64,000 nt of DNA from an uncultured Acidobacteriota bacterium (GTDB taxonomy: Bacteria; Acidobacteriota; Terriglobia; UBA7540): contig CAWDSK010000003.1 in NCBI GenBank assembly GCA_963804995.1, positions 160,001 through 224,000 of the forward strand. Reading direction: 5' to 3'. The notes under the pieces are model-generated. The model worked only from the letters and a program-made list of their open reading frames with translations. It ran no database searches and was not told the DNA's origin. Made by a program: the position numbers and the translations under genes. Positions within the stretch are counted from its first letter, which is position 1. Each line of letters begins with the position of its first letter. Of this stretch, positions 6,650-21,056 are shown one piece after another.

Positions 6650-6724
6650 GGCTCCTCCCACTCTTTCTCGCGAAGAGTGTGCGGCGGGAACGATCATCGC
6701 GAAAACGCGACGCATCCCGATGAA

Positions 6725-6935
6725 CCCAGGCAGGTCTCCTGACTCGCGGCGTAGTAACGGCCCTGCAACGCCTTCCCACCCAATTCCAGCTTCTGCTGAC
6801 TTGAGCAGTGGCTTCGTCCGGCAAACCCTCCGCCGGTCGAACCCGCAGGGCCCACCGCTTACAGTGGCGGGACCGTGGCCGATTTGCACGGCCTTCCCTC
6901 TTGTTCCTCGCCGGCAGCGAGAACCTGGGTCTGTG
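6725..6935 (-). promoter_or_regulatory. Cobalamin riboswitch
   Basis: GGTTC...AGGGAA..CGTGCAAATC..CGGTCCCGCCACTGTAA...GCCACTG...GGGAAGG...AGTCAGGAGACCTGCC (B12 box) upstream of btuF. Confidence 0.95.
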
Positions 6936-7068
6936 CTGCAAAACCGCATTTCGAGCCATTCCAGCGCCCTGCGCAAGCGGCGGCATGCTGACTCGAAGCG
7001 GGTCATCAGTCTAAGGCGCGAGATTTTGTTTGTCAAACCTCTACGCCTCGTCAACAATAGGCAGTGCC

Positions 7069-9223: not shown

Positions 9224-10690
9224 ATGCAAAAACCAATAACGCTGGGCGAGCTGAAGAAGTCTCCGTATCGAAGTGTCAGTATCAAGGATGAGATGCGCGC
9301 GAATCTCCTCCGCAAACTCGCGGCGGGAGAAACCATCTTCCCCGGTATCATCGGGTTCGACGATACGGTCACTCCGCAAATCGTCAACGCCATCCTCTCG
9401 AAACACAATTTTATCTTGCTGGGGCTGCGGGGCCAGGCCAAGAGCCGGATTCTGCGCTCGCTGGTTGCCTTGCTCGATGAAGCGGTGCCCATCGTCGCGG
9501 GTTGCGAAATCAACGACGACCCGCTTAAGCCCATCTGCCGAGCCTGCCACGAACGCCTGCAGGAGTTAGGGGATGCGACGCCGATCGATTACCTTCCGCC
9601 TGACCAGCGTTACGTGGAGAAGCTGGCGACACCGGACGTGACGATTGCCGATATCATCGGCGACCTTGATCCCATCAAGGCGGCGCGGGGCGGGCACACG
9701 TTGGCCAGCGAACTAACGATTCATTACGGCTTGCTGCCTCGGGCCAACCGCGGCATCTTCGCCATCAACGAATTGCCTGATTTGGCGGGCAAAATTCAGG
9801 TGGGCCTCTTCAACATCATGCAGGAGGGCGACGTCCAGATCAAAGGCTATCCGGTGCGCCTGCCGCTCGATGTCGCATTGGTCTTCACTGCCAATCCGGA
9901 GGACTACACGGCGCGCGGCAAGATCATAACTCCCCTCAAGGATCGCATCGGCTCCGAAATCCGCACCCACTATCCCGCCACGCTCGAGCAGGGAATCGAA
10001 ATCACCACGCAGGAAGCCTGGACTGACCGCAACGGAGAAAAGCCGCTGGTGATTCCGCAGTTCATGCGGGAAGTCATCGAAGCGATTGCCTTTGAAGCGC
10101 GCGCCGATAAGCGCGTCGACAAACGCAGCGGCGTCAGCCAGCGTATGCCCATTACCTGCCTGGAAAATGCGGTCAGCAGCGCTGAGTACCGCGCCCTTAA
10201 GAATCGTGAGACAAAAGCCGTTCCGCGGCCTTCTGACATTTACGCTGCCCTGCCCTCTCTTACCGGCAAGCTGGAACTTGAATATGAGGGCGAACTTCGG
10301 GGACCTGACACCGTGGCGCGGGAAATCATTCGCCAGGCGATGGCCAAAGTATTCAAAAGGTACTTCGACAATGTTCCTCTCCACTCCGTTGTGCAATGGT
10401 TCGAGCTTGGGGGAGCATTGAAGTATTCACCCCAATCCTCCTCCGAGGATCTTTTCCAGCAATTCAAGAAAATCCAAGGACTGCTTGAGAAGACCCAGAG
10501 TTTGGGCCTAAAAGCCAAGGATGACCCTTGCCTGCTGACCTCGGGTGCGGAGTTTATTCTGGAAGGACTGTACGCGCTGAAACGCATCAGCCGCAACGAG
10601 GAATTGGGTTACCACACGGAACATCGTGCACCCGAGAAATCTGACGAGGAGCCCACCCCGTTGAGTCCGCGACGCCGTCCTTTGAATTGA
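9224..10690 (+). CDS. AAA+ ATPase (MoxR/Mg-chelatase-related)
   Basis: Variant Walker A GLRGQAKS, Walker B FAINE, TANPEDY, PLKDR. Confidence 0.85.
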   Translation: MQKPITLGELKKSPYRSVSIKDEMRANLLRKLAAGETIFPGIIGFDDTVTPQIVNAILSKHNFILLGLRGQAKSRILRSLVALLDEAVPIVAGCEINDDPLKPICRACHERLQELGDATPIDYLPPDQRYVEKLATPDVTIADIIGDLDPIKAARGGHTLASELTIHYGLLPRANRGIFAINELPDLAGKIQVGLFNIMQEGDVQIKGYPVRLPLDVALVFTANPEDYTARGKIITPLKDRIGSEIRTHYPATLEQGIEITTQEAWTDRNGEKPLVIPQFMREVIEAIAFEARADKRVDKRSGVSQRMPITCLENAVSSAEYRALKNRETKAVPRPSDIYAALPSLTGKLELEYEGELRGPDTVAREIIRQAMAKVFKRYFDNVPLHSVVQWFELGGALKYSPQSSSEDLFQQFKKIQGLLEKTQSLGLKAKDDPCLLTSGAEFILEGLYALKRISRNEELGYHTEHRAPEKSDEEPTPLSPRRRPLN

Positions 10691-10765
10691 GGCGCCCGGG
10701 ACCCGGCGTGAGATAAGGACGAAACTCGCTAACCGTCCGGCGATTTTCGATCTTCGAGTTTCGGT

Positions 10766-12022
10766 ATGAAATACGTCAAGTACTCCAAATACGTTGCCGA
10801 CCTCTTCGATGATTTGAGCGCGGAAGATCTGCTTCAAATGCTGCAGGACTTCCTTCTCGACAGTGGATTCTACGAACAGTTTCAGAGCATCTATGAGATG
10901 GACCCCGAGCGGACCATGGAGCAGCTCCACCAGGCATTGCTGGAGGCCCTGCGCGAACAGGGAAAGATCCCTGACGAGCTTCTGCAACAAATGCTGCAAA
11001 ACTGGGAGGATTATCAGAAGTCCGAGTTGGCGGAGAAGATCAATAAGCTGCTTGAGCGCCTTGCCGAAGAGGGTTACGTCACCATTGAACCGCCCAATCC
11101 CAGCCAGGGAGAATTGATGGAGCGAGCCAATCAGGGCATGGCCGGGCCCGAAGGTAAGGCCAAGTTTGAAGTCACCGACAAGGCGCTGGATTTTCTCGGG
11201 TTCAAAACCCTGCGGGACTTGATGGGTTCACTCGGCAAGTCCAGCCTGGGCCGGCATGATACGCGCGAACTCGCCACGGGGGTCGAGTCCGAAGGCTCCA
11301 GCCGCCGTTACGAGTTTGGCGATACCATGAACCTGGACGTCAACGCGACCCTGCTCTCAGCGATTCAACGCAATGGGCTGCAAGTCCCACTTGACCTCGA
11401 TTACCAGGACTTGCAGGTCCACCAGTGCGAATATCAGAGCTCTTGCGCGACTGTCTTGATGCTGGATTGCAGCCACAGCATGATCCTGTACGGTGAGGAC
11501 CGCTTTACACCCGCCAAGAAAGTTGCGCTCGCCTTAAAGCACCTGATCCAAACCCAGTACCCTGGCGACACCTTACACTTGGTGCTCTTCCACGACTCAG
11601 CGGAGGAAATGCCGCTTTCGGAGCTGGCCAGAATTAAAGTGGGCCCCTATTACACGAATACTCGCGAAGGCCTGCGGCTCGCGCAGCGCATCCTTTCACG
11701 GCAGAAGAAAGACATGCGCCAGATCGTGATGATCACCGATGGCAAGCCCTCGGCTCTCACCCTCGAGGACGGCAGGATATACAAGAACGCCTTCGGACTT
11801 GATCCCTTGGTCGTATCTGAGACCCTGCATGAGGTGGCTCGTTGCCGCCGCAACGGTATCCTGATCAATACCTTTATGCTTGCTTCCGACTATGGATTGG
11901 TGAACTTCGTTCAGAAGGTCACGGAAATCTGCCGGGGCAAAGCCTACTTCACCACCCCTTATACCCTTGGGCAATACCTCCTGATGGATTACATGAAAAA
12001 GAAGGTTAAACATATCCATTAG
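10766..12022 (+). CDS. VWA domain protein, partner of the AAA+ ATPase
   Basis: MIDAS DCSHS, TNT, ITDGKP. Confidence 0.85.
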
Positions 12023-12037
12023 CTCGGGAAGAAGCCT

Positions 12038-12547
12038 ATGCCTACGCTGACCGCAGGTAAGACCGCACCAACCTTCCAGCTTGCCACGATAACCGGGGAA
12101 ACACTGTCCTTGCAGGTGGCGCTTGCCAAAGGGCGGGTTCTAGTGGCCTTCTTTAAGGTATCCTGCCCGACCTGCCAATATACGTTCCCGTATTTGGAAC
12201 GCCTCCACCAGCAGTTTCGCGGGCAGGGCGTCCAAATCTGGGGAGTCGTACAGGATAAAGCGCAAGACGCCGAGAAATTTGCGGCAGCCTTGGGAGTGAC
12301 CTTCCCGATCCTGGTCGACGATTACCCTTACAAGACCTCGCGGGAATACAACTTGAAGTATGTTCCCACCCTATTCTTGATCGGGCCTGATGGCCGCGTC
12401 GAGATGTCCAGCGAGGGCTTCTGCAAGTCAGACCTCCTGGCGATGCAGAAATCTTTGGGCCAGGCGCTGTCGATAACACCCTCCCCGCTCTTCCTCCCCT
12501 CGGAAAGAGTCCCCGAATACAAACCTGGCTGAGGGTCGAAAAGCTAG
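12038..12547 (+). CDS. Thioredoxin-fold (TlpA/AhpC-like) redoxin, probable selenoprotein with UGA=Sec at 12530-12532
   Basis: CPTC motif, VPTLFLI cis-Pro loop; ends KPG-TGA-GSKS-TAG; hairpin follows; selC nearby. Ends at 12532 if UGA is a stop. Confidence 0.75.
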
Positions 12548-12567
12548 GCTTGGTTCAAGCCTTTTTC
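12538..12567 (+). promoter_or_regulatory. SECIS-like hairpin (may also be a terminator)
   Basis: AGGCTT-GGTTC-AAGCCT, extendable by GAAAA/TTTTC; G-leading loop about 20 nt after the UGA. Confidence 0.55.
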
Positions 12568-12623
12568 ACAAAAGACGCGGATGGGGAATAGGGGCGGGTA
12601 CGGTGCGTGCTGCATCGCAATGA

Positions 12624-12788
12624 CTATGGAATCTCTACGTCCGCCAGTCCCTCGCGCTTTTTATGTTTGGGTTGCTTCTTGCGACGGTCCTGGTGACGTT
12701 GCACCGGGGGCGGAGATCCCACCTGTGCTCGTGCCAGTCGCTTGACTTCCTTCGTAGCCTGGAAACGCTTGCGCTTTGCTGGTTTCAT
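12624..12788 (-). CDS. Small basic hypothetical protein
   Basis: 54 aa MKPAKRKRFQATKEVKRLARAQVGSPPP..., directly downstream of selC. Confidence 0.6.
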   Translation of the reverse strand: MKPAKRKRFQATKEVKRLARAQVGSPPPVQRHQDRRKKQPKHKKREGLADVEIP

Positions 12789-12825
12789 TGTTCTAGAAAG
12801 AAGGCAAATCTCGGGCGCAAAAAAT

Positions 12826-12920
12826 TGGCGGAAGTGTGTCGGAATCGAACCGACCGGTCCACCAAAGGCAGACCCACAGGATTTGAAGTCCCGGACGGAC
12901 ACCAGCCCGCATGCACTTCC
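12826..12920 (-). tRNA. selC: tRNA-Sec (UCA)
   Basis: 95 nt; GGAAGTG 5' end, GGAC-TTCAAA-TCC anticodon arm, long variable arm, GGTTCGATTCC T-loop, CACTTCCGCCA 3' end. Confidence 0.96.
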
Positions 12921-13089: not shown

Positions 13090-14610
13090 CTATTTGGAAC
13101 TCACCAGCTCCTTGGTGGTGGGAAGTTTCGAGGTATCCCATCCCCCGCCCAGGGCTTCGATCAGAAGGACGCTGGCGCTCATGCGGCGAGTCAGGATGTT
13201 CAGCGCTTGCACCTGGTCTTGCAGAAGAATGGCTTGCTCGGTGATGACGCTTAGGTAGTTCACGGTGCCGGCCTTGTACTGATAAGTGGAAATATCCAGC
13301 GAACTCTGAGCTGCCGCCACGGCCTCGTTCTCAGCTTGCGCTTCTTTCTCCAGGACGCGCAACGCCGCCAGACTATCCTCAACCTGCTGGAAACCTACCA
13401 GAACGGTCTGGCGATAATTTGCCACCGTCGCGTCATAGGCCGCCAGCGACTGATTAACAGCGGCGCGGCGCTTGCCCGCATCGAAGATGGTTTCCGCCAA
13501 CTCGGGGCCCACGGACCAGGCACGGCTTGGCCAGGAGATCCACTTCAAAAAGTCGGCGCTTCCAAGACCCACCCCGGTGCCGTTGGCGAGGGTGAGGTTT
13601 GGGTAATAGGCCGCTTTGGCGATGCCGATTTGCTCGTTGGCCTGGGCCATTTGCCGTTCGGCAGCGGCGATATCAGGACGTCGTTCCAGCAGTGTGGAAG
13701 GAACCCCCACCGGCACAGGCGGGGGTGTGATCTTGATGGCACTGTAAGAAATGGAAAGTTCCGCGGGAGGCTTGCCCGTCAGGACGGCGATGGCGTGCTC
13801 ATACTGCGCCCGCGCCACATCATAATCGATCAACTGGGCCCGCGCCGTGTTCAATTGGGTCTGCGCTTGAGCCACGTCCGCGCCCGACGCCACACCATTG
13901 GCAAACCTGTCCTGCGTGAGCTTGAGGTAATCCTGATAGGACTTCACGGTAGTTTCAAGCAATTGCTTTTCGCCATCCGTGCCCCGCAACTCGAAGTAAT
14001 CTTGCGCAAGTTCCGCCTGGTAAGACAGTCGCGCGTTCTCCAGTTGGGCGTCACTGGCTTGAGCAGCCTCGGCGCTCGCCTGAATACTGTGCCGGATACT
14101 CCCCCAGATATCGGCTTGATACGACACATCCACCGGAAGTTCGAAGGTGTTATACGCCTTTCCGTTATTGGTACCAGACGTTCGCGAGTTCACGATGGAA
14201 GGAGCGGCGGAAACGGTGGGGTACAGGTTCGAGCGCGAAATCCGCACGGCGAATTTGGCCTCGCGAAATTGCGCTTCCGCCGCGATGAGATTCTGGTTGG
14301 AGACACTCACCTGCTCTTCCAGGGCATTGAGCTCCGGATCGTTGTAGATTTCCCACCATTTGCCACGCGCCAGGGCGTCACTGGGTTGGGCAGCCTTCCA
14401 CTCCGGCATGTCGGGGGAATTATCCGGAGGAAATTCCTTATAGGCGGAGGGAACCGGCGCCGGTGGGCGCTTGTAATCCGGACCCACGCGGCAGGAAGAT
14501 GCGAACAGGAGCGTTCCTGCTGCCACCAGGAAAATGAGATTATGCAGGGGTGTCCCGCCCAGCTTATTTGAACCAGCGGGTTGGGCGGCCTTCGGAAGTT
14601 TCGATGGCAT
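13090..14610 (-). CDS. RND efflux outer membrane lipoprotein (NodT/OprM family)
   Basis: Lipobox ASSC-RVGPDY, WWEIYNDPEL, LLERRPDIAAAER, ALGGGW. Confidence 0.92.
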   Translation of the reverse strand: MPSKLPKAAQPAGSNKLGGTPLHNLIFLVAAGTLLFASSCRVGPDYKRPPAPVPSAYKEFPPDNSPDMPEWKAAQPSDALARGKWWEIYNDPELNALEEQVSVSNQNLIAAEAQFREAKFAVRISRSNLYPTVSAAPSIVNSRTSGTNNGKAYNTFELPVDVSYQADIWGSIRHSIQASAEAAQASDAQLENARLSYQAELAQDYFELRGTDGEKQLLETTVKSYQDYLKLTQDRFANGVASGADVAQAQTQLNTARAQLIDYDVARAQYEHAIAVLTGKPPAELSISYSAIKITPPPVPVGVPSTLLERRPDIAAAERQMAQANEQIGIAKAAYYPNLTLANGTGVGLGSADFLKWISWPSRAWSVGPELAETIFDAGKRRAAVNQSLAAYDATVANYRQTVLVGFQQVEDSLAALRVLEKEAQAENEAVAAAQSSLDISTYQYKAGTVNYLSVITEQAILLQDQVQALNILTRRMSASVLLIEALGGGWDTSKLPTTKELVSSK

Positions 14611-14627
14611 GGTCTAATTTCTCAATC

Positions 14628-17600
14628 CTACATCTCCGGGGCTAGACGGCGTGCCTCATGAGGATCCTTCCCTTGGATCCTGTACCACCAGTATTGCAGC
14701 CTGTCGAAATAGAGATATACGACCGGAGTCGTGTACAAAGTCAGCAACTGGCTTACCAGCAAACCACCGATGATGGCGATACCGAGCGGACGGCGAAACT
14801 CCGAGCCGGTACCGGTGCCAAGCGCCAGCGGCAGGGCGCCCAGCATCGCGGCCATGGTAGTCATCAGGATGGGGCGGAAGCGCAATAAGCACGCCTCATA
14901 GATGGAATCGCGCGAACTCTTGCCTTCGTTGCGCTCGGCGGCCAGAGCAAAATCAATCATCAGGATGGCATTCTTCTTCACGATTCCGATCAGGAGAATG
15001 ATACCGATGATGGCGATCACCGTGAGGTCGGTCCGTGTGAGCATGAGCGCCAGCAGTGCACCCACCCCGGCGGAAGGAAGCGTAGAAAGAATCGTGATGG
15101 GGTGAATGTAACTTTCGTACAGGACACCAAGCACGAGATAAACCGAAACGAGCGCTGCCGCGATCAGGAGAGGCTCACTCCCCAGCGAATCCTGGTAGGC
15201 TTGGGCCGTTCCGGAAAACCCCGTACGGACGGTAGGTGGAAGACCGATTTTGGAGGCGGCAGCGTTGATGGCATCGACAGCATCTCCGAGCGCCACCCCG
15301 GGCTGAAGGTTAAAAGAAACCGTGACAGCGGGAAAAAGGCCCTGGTGGTTTACAGAGAGAGGAGCAGTGATGGAGTTATAACGTGTAAAGGCGCTCAGGG
15401 GAACCTGTTGCCCGCTCGGAGAGCGCACGTAGAGTTGGCGCAGGGTGAGCGGATTCTGCCAATATTCGGGCGCCGTCTCCATAACCACATGGTATTGATT
15501 CAGCGGGGTGTACATGGTTGAGACCTGCCGCTGGCCGAAGGCATCGTAGAGCGTGTTGTCAATCAACTGGGGCGAAATGCCGAAGCGCGCGGCGGTGGCA
15601 CGATCATACTTCAGATAAGCCTGCAGCCCACGGTCCTGCTGGTCGCTGTTCACGTCCGCGATCAGACGGATGCCCCGCAACTCGTTTAACATCCGGGGAG
15701 CAAAATCCTGGAGGTCCTGGAGATTGTCGCCACTCATGGTGTACTGATACTGGGCGGCGCCAAACCGCCCCCCCACGCGCACATCCTGCGATGCCTGCAT
15801 GTAGAGTGCAGCGCCTGGCACCCGGGCCAGCTTGGGGCGGAGCCTCGCGATGATAAGATCGGCACTGACCTTTCTCTCCGCGAGCGGCTTCAGGGAGATG
15901 AACATCTGCGCGCTGTTCTGGGAGCCGCCCCCGCGACCACCTCCCCCCGTGAACCCATTGACGGTATCGACGGCCGGGTCGGCGTCCACGATGTCGATCA
16001 TCTGCCGCAAAATCCCGTCCATGGCTTGAAACGAGGTGTCCTGGTCAGCTTGAATCGCGCCCATGATTCGTCCGTTGTCCTGCTGGGGAAAGAATCCTTT
16101 GGACACGTGGATGTAGAGATAGATGTTCAGCGCAATGGTTGCCAGCAGCACCGCCAGGGTGATGGCCGGGAATGCCAACACTTTGGATAAGGTTCTCCCG
16201 TAAGCCCTCACCACTGCGTTGAAAGCTCGCTCCGAAGCGAGGTAGAGCCAACCATGGGACTCGTGTTCCTGCAGAAGATGAGCGCACATGGCAGGGGTGG
16301 CGGTGAGCGAGACCACCATCGATACCATAATGGCGACGGAGAGCGTTACTGAAAACTCGCGAAACAGGCGGCCCACCACGCCTCCCATCAGCAGCAGCGG
16401 GATGAACACCGCTACCAGCGAGATGCTGATGGTGAGGACGGTAAAACCAATTTCCCGCGCGCCGGTGAGCGCTGCTTGGAAAGGTTTCATGCCCTTTTCG
16501 AGATAGCGCGTGATGTTTTCAATCACCACAATCGCATCGTCAACCACAAAGCCTGTCGAGATACAGAGCGCCATCAAGGAAAGATTGTCCAGGCTGTAGC
16601 CCAGCAGATACATGACTCCGAAGGTTCCCACTAATGACACGGGAACCGCCACGCTCGGGATGAAGGTGGTCCGGGCGCTGCGCAGAAAAACAAAAACCAC
16701 CACGATAACCAGGAGCACGGAGATCAGCAGGGTTCTTTCCACATCGTGCACGGAGGCACGGATAGTGACGGTCTGATCCATGGCCACGCGCATATCGATG
16801 GTGGGTGGGATGTCCGCCTTAAGCTGGGGAAGCAGGGCACGGACGTTGTCGACGGTGTCGATAATGTTGGCCCCGGGCTGACGGAAGAGGATGAGTAGAA
16901 CGGAGGGCTTGCCGTTGGCATAGCCCGAGGCCATGATGTTCTCCGGCGCGTCCCGCGCCTCACCGATGTCCGAGATCCGAACGGCAGACCCCTTCCGGTA
17001 AGCCACGATCAGCGGCATGTAGTCAACCGCCTGGAAGAGCTGGTCGTTGGCGCCCACCTCCCACATGCGGTAACCATCCGAAAAGTGCCCCTTGGGGGTG
17101 TTGGCATTTGAGCCACTCAGGACGGTCCGGACCTGCTCGATCCCGATGCCGTATTTGTCCAGCTTGGCGGGATTCAGTTCGATTCGAACCCCCGGCAGGG
17201 CGCCTCCGCCCACGATCACCTGGCCTATCCCGCTCACCTGCGAAAGCTTCTGCGCCATGATCGTAGAAGCCGCGTCGTACATCCGGCTCTTACTGAGCAC
17301 GTCAGAAGTGAGCGCGATCATGAAAATGGGAGAATCGGCCGGATTCACCTTCCGGTAGGTGGGGTTATTGGGAAGGTTCGTGGGCAGGTAGCCCCGGGCA
17401 GCGTTGATGGCAGCCTGCACATCGCGGGCTGCTGCGTCAATGTTCCGGTTCAAGTCGAATTGCAAGGTTACGCTGGATGATCCCAGGGCACTGGAAGAAG
17501 TCATCTCCGTAACCGCCGCGATGCGGGAGAACTGACGCTCCAGGGGTGTTGCCACGGCGGAGGCCATGGTCTCAGGGCTGGCCCCTGGCAACCCGGCCCC

Positions 17601-17741
17601 CACCGAAATCGTCGGAAAATCCACTTGGGGCAGGGGTGAAACAGGGAGAAGGCGGAAGGCTACGGATCCGGCCAGGGCAATGGCGATGACCAGCAGCGTC
17701 GTAGCAATCGGTCTGTGGATGAACGGCTCGGAGATGCTCAT
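14628..17741 (-). CDS. mdtC: RND transporter permease
   Basis: [45 protein letters not shown]. Confidence 0.9.
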   Translation of the reverse strand: MSISEPFIHRPIATTLLVIAIALAGSVAFRLLPVSPLPQVDFPTISVGAGLPGASPETMASAVATPLERQFSRIAAVTEMTSSSALGSSSVTLQFDLNRNIDAAARDVQAAINAARGYLPTNLPNNPTYRKVNPADSPIFMIALTSDVLSKSRMYDAASTIMAQKLSQVSGIGQVIVGGGALPGVRIELNPAKLDKYGIGIEQVRTVLSGSNANTPKGHFSDGYRMWEVGANDQLFQAVDYMPLIVAYRKGSAVRISDIGEARDAPENIMASGYANGKPSVLLILFRQPGANIIDTVDNVRALLPQLKADIPPTIDMRVAMDQTVTIRASVHDVERTLLISVLLVIVVVFVFLRSARTTFIPSVAVPVSLVGTFGVMYLLGYSLDNLSLMALCISTGFVVDDAIVVIENITRYLEKGMKPFQAALTGAREIGFTVLTISISLVAVFIPLLLMGGVVGRLFREFSVTLSVAIMVSMVVSLTATPAMCAHLLQEHESHGWLYLASERAFNAVVRAYGRTLSKVLAFPAITLAVLLATIALNIYLYIHVSKGFFPQQDNGRIMGAIQADQDTSFQAMDGILRQMIDIVDADPAVDTVNGFTGGGGRGGGSQNSAQMFISLKPLAERKVSADLIIARLRPKLARVPGAALYMQASQDVRVGGRFGAAQYQYTMSGDNLQDLQDFAPRMLNELRGIRLIADVNSDQQDRGLQAYLKYDRATAARFGISPQLIDNTLYDAFGQRQVSTMYTPLNQYHVVMETAPEYWQNPLTLRQLYVRSPSGQQVPLSAFTRYNSITAPLSVNHQGLFPAVTVSFNLQPGVALGDAVDAINAAASKIGLPPTVRTGFSGTAQAYQDSLGSEPLLIAAALVSVYLVLGVLYESYIHPITILSTLPSAGVGALLALMLTRTDLTVIAIIGIILLIGIVKKNAILMIDFALAAERNEGKSSRDSIYEACLLRFRPILMTTMAAMLGALPLALGTGTGSEFRRPLGIAIIGGLLVSQLLTLYTTPVVYLYFDRLQYWWYRIQGKDPHEARRLAPEM

Positions 17742-17744
17742 GAA

Positions 17745-20700
17745 TTATTCCGCCGGAGCAGGCTCTGCACCAGGCAGGGCCACATGCTCGCCGGAGAACC
17801 GTTTGGCCAGACGATCGAACCAGAGATAGATGACCGGAGTGGTATAGAGCGTCAACATCTGGCTGAAAATCAGGCCCCCGACGATACTGATGCCCAAAGG
17901 CCGGCGGAGCTCCGACCCGGTGCCGGTACCCAGCGCCAGGGGAACACCACCCAGCAGCGCCGCCATGGTGGTCATGATGATCGGCCGAAAACGCAGCAGG
18001 CAAGCCTGGTAGATGGCGTTGATCGGCGTCAAGCCTTCCTTTCGTTCCGCTTCCAGGGCAAAATCGATCATCATGATGGCGTTTTTCTGTACAATGCCAA
18101 TCAACAGCACCAGGCCAATCAAGGCAATAACACTGAAATCGTTGCGGGTAAGCCAAAGGGCCAGCAGTGCCCCTACGCCCGCGGAGGGCAGCGTGGAAAG
18201 AATGGTTATGGGGTGAATATAGCTTTCATACAAAACCCCCAGAATGATATAGACCGTAACCACCGCGGCCAGAATCAGCCAGAGCTCATCCGCCAACGAG
18301 GCTTGGAAGGCCTGGGCCATGCCCTGGAACGACGGCTGGATACTCGCCGGCAGGCCCAGAGCCGGATCATCTTTCACCCGATTGACGGCCTTGACGGCGT
18401 CGCCCAAGGAAGCATCTTGTGCCAGGTTGAAGGAGAGCGTGACCACGGGAAACTGGCCTTGATGATTGACGGTAATCGGCACATTGATCGGCACGACATG
18501 GGTAAAAGCCGCCAAGGGCACTTGATTACCGGTTAGAAACACACCTGTTGAGGAGATCGATTTCCCTCCGAAGGCATTGTTCGAAGAGATCGAACTCAAG
18601 CTGCTGAGTGAGGAGGTGGTTGTAGACAGGCTGGCACTCGCCACGCTGGCCGAGCTGGAGGGTCCAAAGATCTGACTCGTCGCCGTCCCGCCTGCCACCA
18701 GTCCCGTGGCACCGCTGGGGGCTCCCGTCCCCGTCCTGATGTACAGGTCGCGCAGATCCAAGGGGTTCTGCTGAAAGTTGTTTTTCACTTCCAGGACCAC
18801 GTGGTATTGATTCAATTGGGTGAAGATCGTCGAAACTTCCCGCTGGCCATACGCATCATAGAGCGTCTGGTCAATAGCGGAGGGCGTGATCCCCAGGCGA
18901 TAAGCGGTTTCACGATCAAAGACCACTTGGGCGCGCAGGCCCTGGTCCTGCTGGTCGCTCGCCACGTTGCGCAGCTCGGGCTGCTTCCTCAACTCCTCCA
19001 CCATTTTGGGCGCGAACGCATTCAGCTCATCGACGTTGGGATCTTCGAGGGTGTACTGAAACTGCGTACGGCTCACCCGGTCCTCAACGGTTATATCCTG
19101 CACCGGTTGCATGAACAGGGTGATTCCTGCCACTTTGGCTAATTCCGGCTGCAAGCGCCGAATGACATCGCTGGCACTGACTTTGCGTTCGGAGAGTGCT
19201 TTCAGATTGATGAGTATGCGCCCGCTATTCAGTGTGGTGTTCGTGCCGTCGATTCCGATAAAAGAGGAGAGGTTATCCACGGCCGGATCTTGCAGAATGA
19301 CATTCGCCAGCGCCTGCTGTTCCCTGGACATCTCAGGGAAGGAAACGGTCTGCGCCGATTCCGAAACACCCTGAATGACCCCGGTATCCTGAATCGGAAA
19401 AAAACCTTTGGGGATATAAATGTAAAACAGCGCGGTGCAAGCCAGGGTGGCAATGGCCACGAGCAGAGTCGTGGTCTGATGGCGTAACACCACTTGGAGG
19501 GTGCGGTCATACAGTGCCAGCAACCCGTTCCACCCTGCCTCAATCGTGCGGTACAACCTCCCTTGCTCAGCAGCGGTATGGTGCCGCAAGAGTTTGGAGC
19601 ACATCATGGGCGTCAGGGTCAGCGAAACGATACAGGAAACCAGGATGGTCACCGCCAAGGTAACGGCAAATTCCCGGAAGAGGCGCCCGACAATGTCCCC
19701 CATGAACAACAAAGGGATGAGGCCGGCAATCAGGGAGATGGTCAGCGAAACAATGGTGAAACCTATCTGCTCCGATCCTTTGAGCGCGGCTCGCAGCGGC
19801 GCATCGCCCTCCTCGATGTAGCGCATGATGTTCTCAATCATCACGATCGCATCATCGACCACGAAACCCGTCGAAATGGTCAAGGCCATCAGGCTCAAAT
19901 TGTTCAAGCTATAGCCGAGCATGTACATGACGCCGAAAGTCCCCACCAGGGACAAGGGAACAGCAACACTGGGTATCACGGTGGCAGCCAGGTTGCGCAA
20001 GAACAGGAAGATCACCATCACCACCAGCGCAATCGCCAGGAGAAGCGAGAATTGCACATCGGTAACCGAGGCCCGGATCGTGTTGGTCCGGTCGGTCAGA
20101 ATGCTGACCTTGACGGAGGAGGGCATGGTGCTGGTGAGCTGGGGAAGAAGCAACTTGATGCGGTCGGCAACCGAGATGATATTCGCGCCCGGCTGCCGCT
20201 TGATGTTGACGATTACGGCAGGAACGTCGTTCATCCAGGCCGCTTGGCGAAGGTTCTCGGCGTCGTCGGAAATTTCCGCAACATCCGTTAATTTCACCGG
20301 GGAGCCGTTCCGGTAAGCAATGACCAACGGAGCGTAATCGGCGCTGGAGAGAAGCTGGTCGTTGGCGCCAATCTGGTAGGACTGCCGCGGCCCATCAAAG
20401 TTGCCCTTCGCCAGGTTAACATTGGCTGCCACGATGGTGCTGCGCAAATCCTCCAGGTTGAGCCCGAAGGCTGCCAGCGCCGTGGGATTGGCACGGATGC
20501 GGACCGAGGGTTTCTGGCCACCGCTGATGCTGACCAGCCCGACTCCCGGCAACTGTGAAATCTTCGGAGCCAGCCGCGTGTCGGCAAGGTCTTCGACTTT
20601 GGTGAGCGGAAGATTCTTGGAAGTCAGGGCCAGGGTCAGAATAGGAGCGTCGGCAGGATTGCTTTTGCTATAGATGGGTGGCGTCGGAAGGTCAGGGGGA

Positions 20701-21056
20701 AGGTAGGTTCCCGAAGCATTGATGGACTGCTGTACTTCCTGTTCCGCAACGTCAATATTGAGGCTGAGGTTGAATTGCAGGGTGATGACCGAGCTTCCGT
20801 CGGAGCTGACGGAGGTCATCTGCTGGAGCCCCGGCACCTGGCCAAATTGGCGCTCCAGCGGAGCCGTGACCGAAGACGCCATCACATCCGGGCTGGCCCC
20901 GGGATAAAACGTGATGACCTGAATGGTCGGGTAATCCACCTCCGGCAAGGCCGATACCGGCAACTGCTTGTATGCTACTGCGCCCGCCAGGAGGATGCCG
21001 ACCATGAGCAAAGAGGTCGCCACGGGTCGGAGGATGAATATCCGTGACGGGCTCAT
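17745..21056 (-). CDS. mdtB: RND transporter permease with Ser/Thr/Gly-rich insert
   Basis: [39 protein letters not shown]. Confidence 0.92.

What the first reader, a model, noticed from the sequence alone, without database searches (positions are those of the whole stretch)
12038..12920. Hidden selenoprotein: CxxC redoxin with a C-terminal G-U-G tail, next to tRNA-Sec
Seen: the ORF track stops at TGA after EYKPG, but the frame continues GSKS-TAG; a stem with a G-leading loop lies about 20 nt downstream, largely beyond the stop; selC is about 280 bp away on the opposite strand. Established: bacterial Sec insertion needs UGA, an adjacent SECIS and tRNA-Sec. Inference: a thioredoxin-fold protein with CPTC, a third Cys (GFC) and a tail Sec that could act as a redox arm. 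The hairpin is followed by T residues and could serve as both SECIS and terminator.
Basis: partly seen in the sequence, partly recalled or inferred. Interest (0 to 1): 0.85.

Follow-up and report, generated by a model that had tools for sequence, protein, structure and literature searches.

The report
Thioredoxin with hidden selenocysteine tail
The apparent stop codon of this small redox-protein gene is very likely read as the rare amino acid selenocysteine, adding a five-residue tail predicted to fold back onto the protein's own active-site cysteine, in a family widespread in Acidobacteria that databases record as cut short.

Summary
Confirmed. The frame reads EYKPG-TGA-GSKS-TAG, followed by a G-loop hairpin, with tRNA-Sec 278 bp away. 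Among 150 loci, 128 (126 distinct) carry TGA at this site and 19 carry Cys. None has TAA or TAG, while the real stop downstream varies freely. The tail is conserved as protein, and the hairpin keeps its spacing and covaries. Within the class, the gene occurs in 14 of 15 selA-positive and 0 of 23 selA-negative genomes. The tail aligns with the G-C-x-x-K tail of PrxL (cd02969) proteins, and coevolution places it at the active site. The likely mechanism is a Cys43–Sec165 bond recycled by Cys46 and an NADPH flavoreductase. The substrate is unknown. Caveat: selA and selB each carry one frameshift in this error-prone assembly. No NCBIfam model or entry in a 2026 catalogue of 119 families matches. 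The scan found this family twice before on other genomes.

The parts
12038..12547 (+). Redoxin gene read through the UGA: 169 aa, TlpA/ResA-type thioredoxin fold plus a 26-residue C-terminal arm ending K-P-G-U-G-S-K-S
   Evidence: PF00578, PF08534; pLDDT 96.8
12164..12175 (+). CPTC active-site motif (C43, C46)
   Evidence: Sequence; C43 99%, C46 94% conserved
12365..12367 (+). Pro110, at the position of the thioredoxin cis-proline, invariant
12422..12424 (+). C129 of GFC; variable, not a family feature
   Evidence: Cys in 8% of the weighted alignment
12530..12532 (+). In-frame UGA, predicted Sec165
   Evidence: TGA in 128 of 150 loci, Cys in 19, TAA/TAG in none
12533..12547 (+). Tail codons G-S-K-S and the true stop TAG
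   Evidence: Synonymous variation, Ser as both TCN and AGY; true stop TAG 87, TGA 31, TAA 7 of 125
12546..12562 (+). SECIS-type hairpin: 7-bp stem, GUU loop 20 nt after the UGA, almost wholly in the 3' untranslated region
12624..12788 (-). Small basic ORF (54 aa, KR-AR motif) between the redoxin and selC; neighbour, not shown to be part of the system
   Evidence: found in 12 of 15 selC-adjacent loci checked; no Pfam hit
12826..12920 (-). tRNA-Sec (selC), the only TCA-anticodon tRNA among 72 found in the genome; convergent with the redoxin
   Evidence: promoter-like site at 12955-12927
9224..12022 (+). Upstream AAA+ (MoxR-like) and vWA genes; vWA ends 15 nt before the redoxin, so they are probably co-transcribed here
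   Evidence: same neighbours in about 45 of 147 loci

Best explanation
This gene very likely encodes a 169-residue selenoprotein, a thioredoxin-fold CxxC protein whose UGA is predicted to be read as selenocysteine with the help of a hairpin in the 3' untranslated region, and whose selenium-bearing tail is predicted to lie in its own active-site groove and pair with Cys43. Step 1 (well supported by comparative data, not measured): SelB with Sec-tRNA binds the G-loop hairpin 20 nt downstream and inserts Sec165; translation ends four codons later. Step 2 (predicted): the arm wraps along the CxxC helix and places Sec165 where a thioredoxin substrate binds, as the G-C-x-x-K tail of PrxL proteins does. 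Step 3 (inferred): the selenolate is the outward nucleophile that reduces an oxidised partner, most likely a protein disulfide or sulfenic acid, and is captured by Cys43 as a selenenylsulfide. Step 4 (inferred): Cys46 releases the tail by forming the CxxC disulfide, which an NADPH-dependent flavoprotein (thioredoxin reductase or a CoA-disulfide-reductase-like enzyme) reduces. The protein thus works like a thioredoxin with a tethered, self-recycled selenium arm. My odds: readthrough as Sec in the family about 0.95, Cys43-Sec165 pairing about 0.75, this direction of electron flow about 0.5.
For: Readthrough: TGA in 128 of 150 loci and Cys in 19, none TAA/TAG, while the true stop varies. The tail is conserved with synonymous codon change. 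Short stand-alone Cys forms exist, e.g. P0148, P0168, P0197, P0201, P0210, P0249 and P0295, P0297, P0299, P0303. The hairpin is present in 118 of 125 loci against 28 of 600 controls; all 7 pairs show two-sided change, with covariation 0.67 against 0.28 or less when slid. The gene is in 14 of 15 selA-positive and 0 of 23 selA-negative genomes of the class. Of 48 fetched TGA-type genomes, 46 have selA; the other two have selB and tRNA-Sec. This genome has a Sec-type SelD and two Sec-type peroxiredoxins. Geometry: the tail is modelled at pLDDT above 90. Of the 50 best structural matches only the PrxL-type entries 2ywi, 2cvb, 2ywo and 3u5r align through residue 169 (Z 17.8-18.3, rmsd 2.4-2.8, 151-152 residues), and they end in G-C-x-I-K-W. 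The profile alignment puts U165 on that Cys (98% probability). Coevolving pairs include F128-P159 (rank 3), Y48-E156 (7), F128-P163 (11) and V109-S167 (53). Eight TGA loci have lost C46 but keep C43. PrxL's two distant cysteines are reported to be disulfide-bonded and kept reduced in vivo (PMC3322552, passages). Electron supply: a CoA-disulfide-reductase-like gene lies directly upstream in 17 loci, and trxB or a glutaredoxin-TrxB fusion directly downstream in 5.
Against: No protein, RNA or labelling data exist. selA and selB each carry one frameshift in this assembly. Frameshifts also hit 10 of 145 and 2 of 33 other genes, so error is plausible, but both genes being hit by chance is only about 1% likely, so real decay of the Sec system in this strain is not excluded. 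Model coordinates could not be inspected, so the Cys43-Sec165 distance was not measured. The coevolution signal is shallow (effective depth 250), and tail positions are gaps in 54% of rows. The covariation set was picked for a common register. Related genomes are not independent. Most loci have non-redox neighbours, and this genome has no homologue of the CoA-disulfide-reductase-like neighbour. A tail in the groove must move aside for a reductase to reach the CxxC.
Confidence: 0.7

Rival explanations
1. Sec is inserted and pairs with Cys43, but the roles are reversed: Cys43 attacks the substrate and Sec165 is the resolving residue, or the entry point for electrons from a reductase, with Cys46 as a backup.
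For: PrxL proteins have only the first Cys and the tail Cys. Eight family members lack C46. C43 is more conserved than C46.
Against: C46 is kept in 94% of the family. A docked tail would cover the groove an outside substrate needs. Sec is usually the attacking residue in selenoenzymes (recalled).
Confidence: 0.3
2. The protein is a selenium-dependent peroxide or hypochlorite scavenger: the selenolate is oxidised directly by a small oxidant and recycled by the CxxC.
For: The chemistry fits the same geometry. JGI labels many members 'peroxiredoxin'. The hosts are mostly soil and peat Acidobacteriota by record title.
Against: There is no peroxiredoxin PxxxTxxC motif. Caulobacter PrxL showed no peroxidase activity (PMC3322552). 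The genome already has two Sec-type peroxiredoxins. Cys forms are fused to a UGSC-partner domain, which points to a protein partner.
Confidence: 0.2
3. The family is a selenoprotein family, but this strain has lost working SelA and SelB, so here the gene gives only the truncated 164-residue protein.
For: One frameshift each in selA and selB; jointly unlikely at the measured error rate.
Against: The assembly has frameshifts in about 7% of tested genes, including housekeeping ones. tRNA-Sec, Sec-type SelD, two Sec-type peroxiredoxins and this hairpin are intact. Another long-contig genome (G166) has a selA break at about the same position.
Confidence: 0.2
4. TGA is the real stop and the hairpin is a terminator or stabiliser; or UGA is read as Cys, Ser or Trp by a suppressor or allo-tRNA.
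For: All databases end the protein at xPG. The window has a T run after the stem. Allo-tRNAs are reported in Acidobacteria (PMC5389517, passages).
Against: TGA is never swapped for TAA/TAG while the next stop is. The tail is conserved as protein and aligns with Cys homologues. The T run is seen in 1 of 125 loci. The gene tracks the Sec machinery. The only TCA tRNA found is tRNA-Sec, and TGA ends three ordinary neighbouring genes.
Confidence: 0.04

Closest known systems
PrxL / PRX_like1 (CDD cd02969; PDB 2ywi, 2cvb, 2ywo, 3u5r; Caulobacter PrxL, PMC3322552)
   Same: Thioredoxin fold with a C-terminal arm carrying G-C-x-x-K that aligns with G-U-G-S-K by structure and profile; first active-site Cys at the same place.
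   Different: PrxL has C-N-H-C-P with no resolving Cys and a Cys tail ending K-W. This family has a full CxxC, a Sec tail, about 22% identity, and no PrxL insertions.
ResA / TlpA / CcmG (DsbE) thiol-disulfide oxidoreductases (PDB 1st9, 3c71, 3gl3; NF002854)
   Same: Best sequence and fold matches for residues 1-145, with CxxC and the cis-Pro position.
   Different: These matches stop near residue 145 and have no Cys/Sec arm. No hydrophobic anchor is seen at this N-terminus. The NCBIfam score is 70.9 against a cut-off of 170.
Known bacterial redoxin-type selenoproteins (Prx TxxU; Prx-like UxxC; UGC-containing TlpA, NF041054; VPGUxxT, NF041383)
   Same: Thioredoxin superfamily, UGA plus a bacterial SECIS.
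   Different: The catalogue motifs are of the active-site type. Here the CxxC is all Cys and Sec sits five residues from the C-terminus. NF041054 scores 21.5 against a cut-off of 300; NF041383 gave no hit.
Bacterial C-terminal selenoproteins (SaoC, KCU-star, UXX-star)
   Same: Sec at or near the C-terminus with the SECIS past the stop. The SaoC hairpin (7-bp stem, GGU loop; bioRxiv 2022.07.06.499078) resembles this one.
   Different: Different proteins. None is listed as a CxxC TlpA-type protein with a G-U-x-S/A-K/R arm.
Mammalian thioredoxin reductase C-terminal Gly-Cys-Sec-Gly arm (recalled, no call)
   Same: An internal dithiol recharges a C-terminal selenium arm.
   Different: Analogy only: unrelated fold, no flavin, no adjacent Cys, and this arm appears docked on its own domain.

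Membership tests
Bacterial selenoprotein (criteria of Haft and Gwadz) | At least ten candidate examples | tested here: met
   126 distinct TGA loci
Bacterial selenoprotein (criteria of Haft and Gwadz) | TGA in 100% of truncated members | tested here: met
   128 of 128 non-Cys orthologue loci; no TAA/TAG
Bacterial selenoprotein (criteria of Haft and Gwadz) | Similarity runs through the site, with Cys homologues of like length | tested here: met
   Tail G/S/A-S/A-K/R-N/S; short Cys forms of 165-175 aa and 19 fused Cys loci
Bacterial SECIS model (PMC13188914 section 5) | [quoted passage not shown] | tested here: met
   Window: loop GUU, 7 bp, 20 nt, -8.0 to -8.5; 102 of 125 loci meet -7.5, against 25 of 600 controls
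Bacterial selenoprotein | Intact selA, selB, selC and selD in the genome | tested here: inconclusive
   All four found; selC and selD intact, selA and selB each frameshifted in an error-prone assembly
Bacterial selenoprotein | Selenium shown in the protein | not testable with these tools
   Needs 75Se labelling or mass spectrometry
ResA/TlpA/CcmG | Thioredoxin fold with CxxC and the cis-Pro position | tested here: met
ResA/TlpA/CcmG | Score above a curated family cut-off | tested here: not met
   NF002854 70.9 against 170; best E-value among 105 members 1.4e-24
ResA/TlpA/CcmG | N-terminal export signal or membrane anchor | tested here: inconclusive
   None visible in the sequence; no signal-peptide predictor was available
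PrxL (cd02969) | C-terminal G-C-x-x-K arm aligned to the active site | tested here: met
   Met with Sec for Cys
PrxL (cd02969) | C-N-H-C-P motif with no resolving Cys; Trp after the tail Lys | tested here: not met
   This protein has S-C-P-T-C and ends K-S
PrxL (cd02969) | Score against the CDD model | not testable with these tools
   CDD is not among the libraries
Peroxiredoxin | PxxxTxxC motif with conserved Arg (PMC3322552) | tested here: not met
   The motif is F-F-K-V-S-C-P-T-C
Catalogued redoxin selenoprotein families | Sec within the listed motif (UxxC, TxxU, UGC, UxxS, VPGU) | tested here: not met
Intrinsic terminator | Conserved U tract after the stem | tested here: not met
   1 of 125 loci; scan found 0 sites

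The most novel reading that the evidence does not exclude
This is an uncatalogued, phylum-wide selenoprotein family with a new redox design: a thioredoxin that carries its own selenium substrate arm and recycles it internally. It may be among the commonest selenoproteins of soil Acidobacteriota. It identifies the PrxL tail cysteine as the catalytic residue of that unexplained family, and its Cys fusions mark it as the electron donor of the UGSC/Unknown_1 reductase system.
Probability: 0.4. Interest if true: 0.75.

Novelty: new variant of a known kind. Interest (0 to 1): 0.6.

Why it matters
All 120 close homologues listed stop at the UGA, so public records omit the probable catalytic residue of a family found in at least 48 of 400 sampled genomes of the phylum. 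It would add a family to the bacterial selenoproteome with an unusual layout: an all-Cys CxxC plus a tail Sec. A Sec-for-Cys swap marks the PrxL tail as redox-active and gives a testable handle on PrxL and on the UGSC system, both of unknown function. It is also a compact natural case of a SECIS lying almost wholly in the 3' untranslated region, free of coding constraint, which is useful for studying SelB recognition.

Tried and rejected
Third Cys (C129) as catalytic: rejected, 8% conserved. SECIS-terminator dual role: rejected as a family feature. selC adjacency as essential: clade-limited. A genome-wide scan for SECIS-like hairpins after TGA gave 1043 unspecific hits, so the hairpin alone proves nothing. 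A single-sequence fold of the fused Cys form failed (pLDDT 34.8) and was not used. The quick tree (the careful search did not finish) is open at depth: Cys forms are scattered, but the direction of Sec/Cys change is not resolved. Whether the selA/selB breaks share an error-prone motif with other breaks was inconclusive (2 of 12). No RNA holder was listed. No UGSC or Unknown_1 gene was found in this genome by tblastn, and no formate dehydrogenase alpha over the cut-off. A search for longer forms scored only the top 7996 candidates and missed the known fusions. DNA for the Chloroflexota-type group was not obtained, so TGA there is inferred only from proteins ending in G. Cluster names and an atlas look-up stayed unavailable. 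Haft and Tolstoy 2025 could not be read; its families were seen only through the review's Table 1 and NCBIfam release 20. The BSepDB entries themselves were not searchable.

Full report
Observation. The sequence is as described. The frame from 12038 reads EYKPG, TGA (12530-12532), GSKS, TAG (12545-12547). A 7-bp hairpin with a GUU loop spans 12546-12562, with its loop 20 nt after the UGA. tRNA-Sec lies convergently at 12826-12920 and is the only TCA-anticodon tRNA among 72 found in the genome. TGA ends three ordinary neighbouring genes, so there is no general recoding.

Is the UGA read? All 120 listed close homologues (of 1214 hits; one is the window's own protein) end at xPG. Of 150 representatives at 50% clustering, 111 end in Gly (two of these are unrelated multidomain proteins) and 7 continue with Cys. 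I then examined 150 DNA loci: the window's own, 69 from a 400-genome sample of the phylum, and 80 GTDB records whose titles are nearly all Acidobacteriota. TGA stood at the site in 128 (126 distinct) and a Cys codon in 19. Two loci were ordinary TlpA proteins, and one was frameshifted but has the TGA and tail in the shifted frame. None had TAA or TAG. The true stop a few codons later was TAG 87, TGA 31 and TAA 7 of 125, an internal control.

The tail and the hairpin. The tail is conserved as protein: all four Gly codons at +1, Ser as both TCN and AGY at +2, and Lys or Arg in 123 of 126 at +3. A hairpin with G in the first two loop positions, starting 18-26 nt after the UGA, occurs in 118 of 125 loci, against 28 of 600 TGA-ended long frames of this genome (the controls include non-genes). 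The loop lies past the stop in 114 of 125. In 22 loci chosen for a common register, all 7 pairs show two-sided changes; covariation is 0.67, against 0.28 or less when slid. The choice of register favours this result.

Sec machinery. Within the class sample, the gene is present in 14 of 15 selA-positive and 0 of 23 selA-negative genomes. Of 48 fetched genomes with the TGA form, 46 have selA against a background of 300 of 400; G230 and G318 lack a selA match but have selB and tRNA-Sec. Kin are not independent, so no P-value is claimed. This genome has selD with its own in-frame TGA and hairpin and two peroxiredoxins with T-P-G-TGA. Against this, selA and selB each show one frameshift. Frameshifts also affect 10 of 145 and 2 of 33 other genes, including housekeeping ones. 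Assembly error is therefore the likelier cause, but two hits are only about 1% likely at that rate, and I leave 0.2 for real decay in this strain.

What the protein is. Pfam gives AhpC/TSA and Redoxin. No NCBIfam model reaches its cut-off for this protein, and a scan of 105 members showed only the same weak generic matches. The model is confident throughout (pLDDT 96.8) and matches ResA/DsbE best over residues 1-145. A paralogue in this genome aligned through the tail and led to the PrxL family. Among the 50 best structures only 2ywi, 2cvb, 2ywo and 3u5r align to residue 169. They end in G-C-x-I-K-W, and the family profile places U165 on that Cys. Cho et al. report that Caulobacter PrxL (cd02969) has two distant cysteines that are disulfide-bonded when its reductant is depleted, and no detectable peroxidase activity (PMC3322552, passages). 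Coevolution links the arm to F128, Y48 and V109, residues that by thioredoxin knowledge (recalled) line the substrate groove. C43 is 99% and C46 94% conserved, and eight TGA loci have CxxS or CxxT. This points to Cys43-Sec165 as the core pair. C129 is Cys in only 8%.

Context. The AAA+/vWA pair precedes the gene in about 45 of 147 loci. A CoA-disulfide-reductase-like gene lies directly upstream in 17, and trxB or a glutaredoxin-TrxB fusion directly downstream in 5. This genome has trxB elsewhere and no hit to the former. All 19 Cys-codon loci are long fusions. In the three read in full the added domain carries the A-x-N-x-V-M-A-G-C motif of 'Unknown_1', the UGSC fusion partner in Zhang and Gladyshev 2008. 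A conserved small gene follows in 15 of 19; the one tested matched the UGSC model below its cut-off because it is cut by the locus end. Source names extend the family to Dehalococcoidia and Tectomicrobia, without DNA.

Mechanism. Shown: the sequence features and their conservation. Predicted: Sec insertion and the docked tail. Inferred: the selenolate reduces an outside partner, Cys43 captures it, Cys46 releases it, and an NADPH flavoreductase restores the CxxC. The reverse assignment of roles and a peroxide-scavenging role remain open, and the substrate is unknown.

Novelty. Table 1 of the 2026 review (PMC13188914; sections 5 and 7 parts 1-2 read) lists 119 families, none described as a CxxC redoxin with a terminal Sec arm. 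Motif searches in the GOS and deep-Sep supplements showed only other families in the passages returned. Deep-Sep lists three other selenoproteins for its one Acidobacterium. Passage searches of PMC13326102, PMC5029168 and bioRxiv 2022.07.06.499078 gave no mention. Library searches (listings only) found no description. Haft and Tolstoy 2025 and the BSepDB entries could not be seen, so a prior annotation under a generic name is possible. Two unreviewed notes of this scan reach the same reading on other genomes. I saw them after forming my reading and do not count them as support.

Verdict. A real, very probably translated selenocysteine tail defines an apparently uncatalogued thioredoxin-fold selenoprotein family related in design to PrxL. 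It is a new variant of a known kind; interest 0.6.

Noticed in passing
G000:C9:298251-299595 (selA) and G000:C5:338047-339943 (selB): Each gene carries a single frameshift; G166 has a selA break at about the same position. Assembly error or recent decay is unresolved.
   Followed up: partly
L158 (G000:C3:157800-158267) and L159 (G000:C2:655888-656280): Two BCP-type peroxiredoxins with an in-frame TGA at the peroxidatic position; one lies about 14 kb upstream of this gene.
   Followed up: partly
L157:923-2068: Exported-looking protein with a PrxL domain (G-C-S-T-K-W) fused to a second TlpA CxxC domain, a natural PrxL-plus-reductant fusion.
   Followed up: partly
window 12023-12037; L037-L040, L065, L089 and others: 44 of 111 orthologues have an in-frame upstream Met, often giving a basic amphipathic extension. 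In some it overlaps an extended -10-like motif and the ribosome-binding site, so it may be partly a gene-calling artefact. The window lacks it, keeping only LGKKP after the vWA stop.
   Followed up: partly
L028, L034, L036, L120-L152 (19 loci): Cys-form redoxin fused to an approximately 380-residue domain without Pfam or NCBIfam match (GOS 'Unknown_1'), usually followed by a UGSC-type gene; an uncharacterised redox system.
   Followed up: partly
L020, L027 (and frameshifted L031): Glutaredoxin-thioredoxin reductase fusion directly downstream of the selenoredoxin.
   Followed up: partly
window 12624-12788 (-): Conserved 54-residue highly basic ORF just downstream of selC, without Pfam match.
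   Followed up: partly
window 6712-6943 (-): Cobalamin riboswitch upstream of a BtuF-like periplasmic binding protein gene.
   Followed up: no
window 13090-21056 (-): RND efflux operon (two MdtB/C-like subunits by inspection and a NodT-family outer membrane protein) ending about 170 bp before selC.
   Followed up: no
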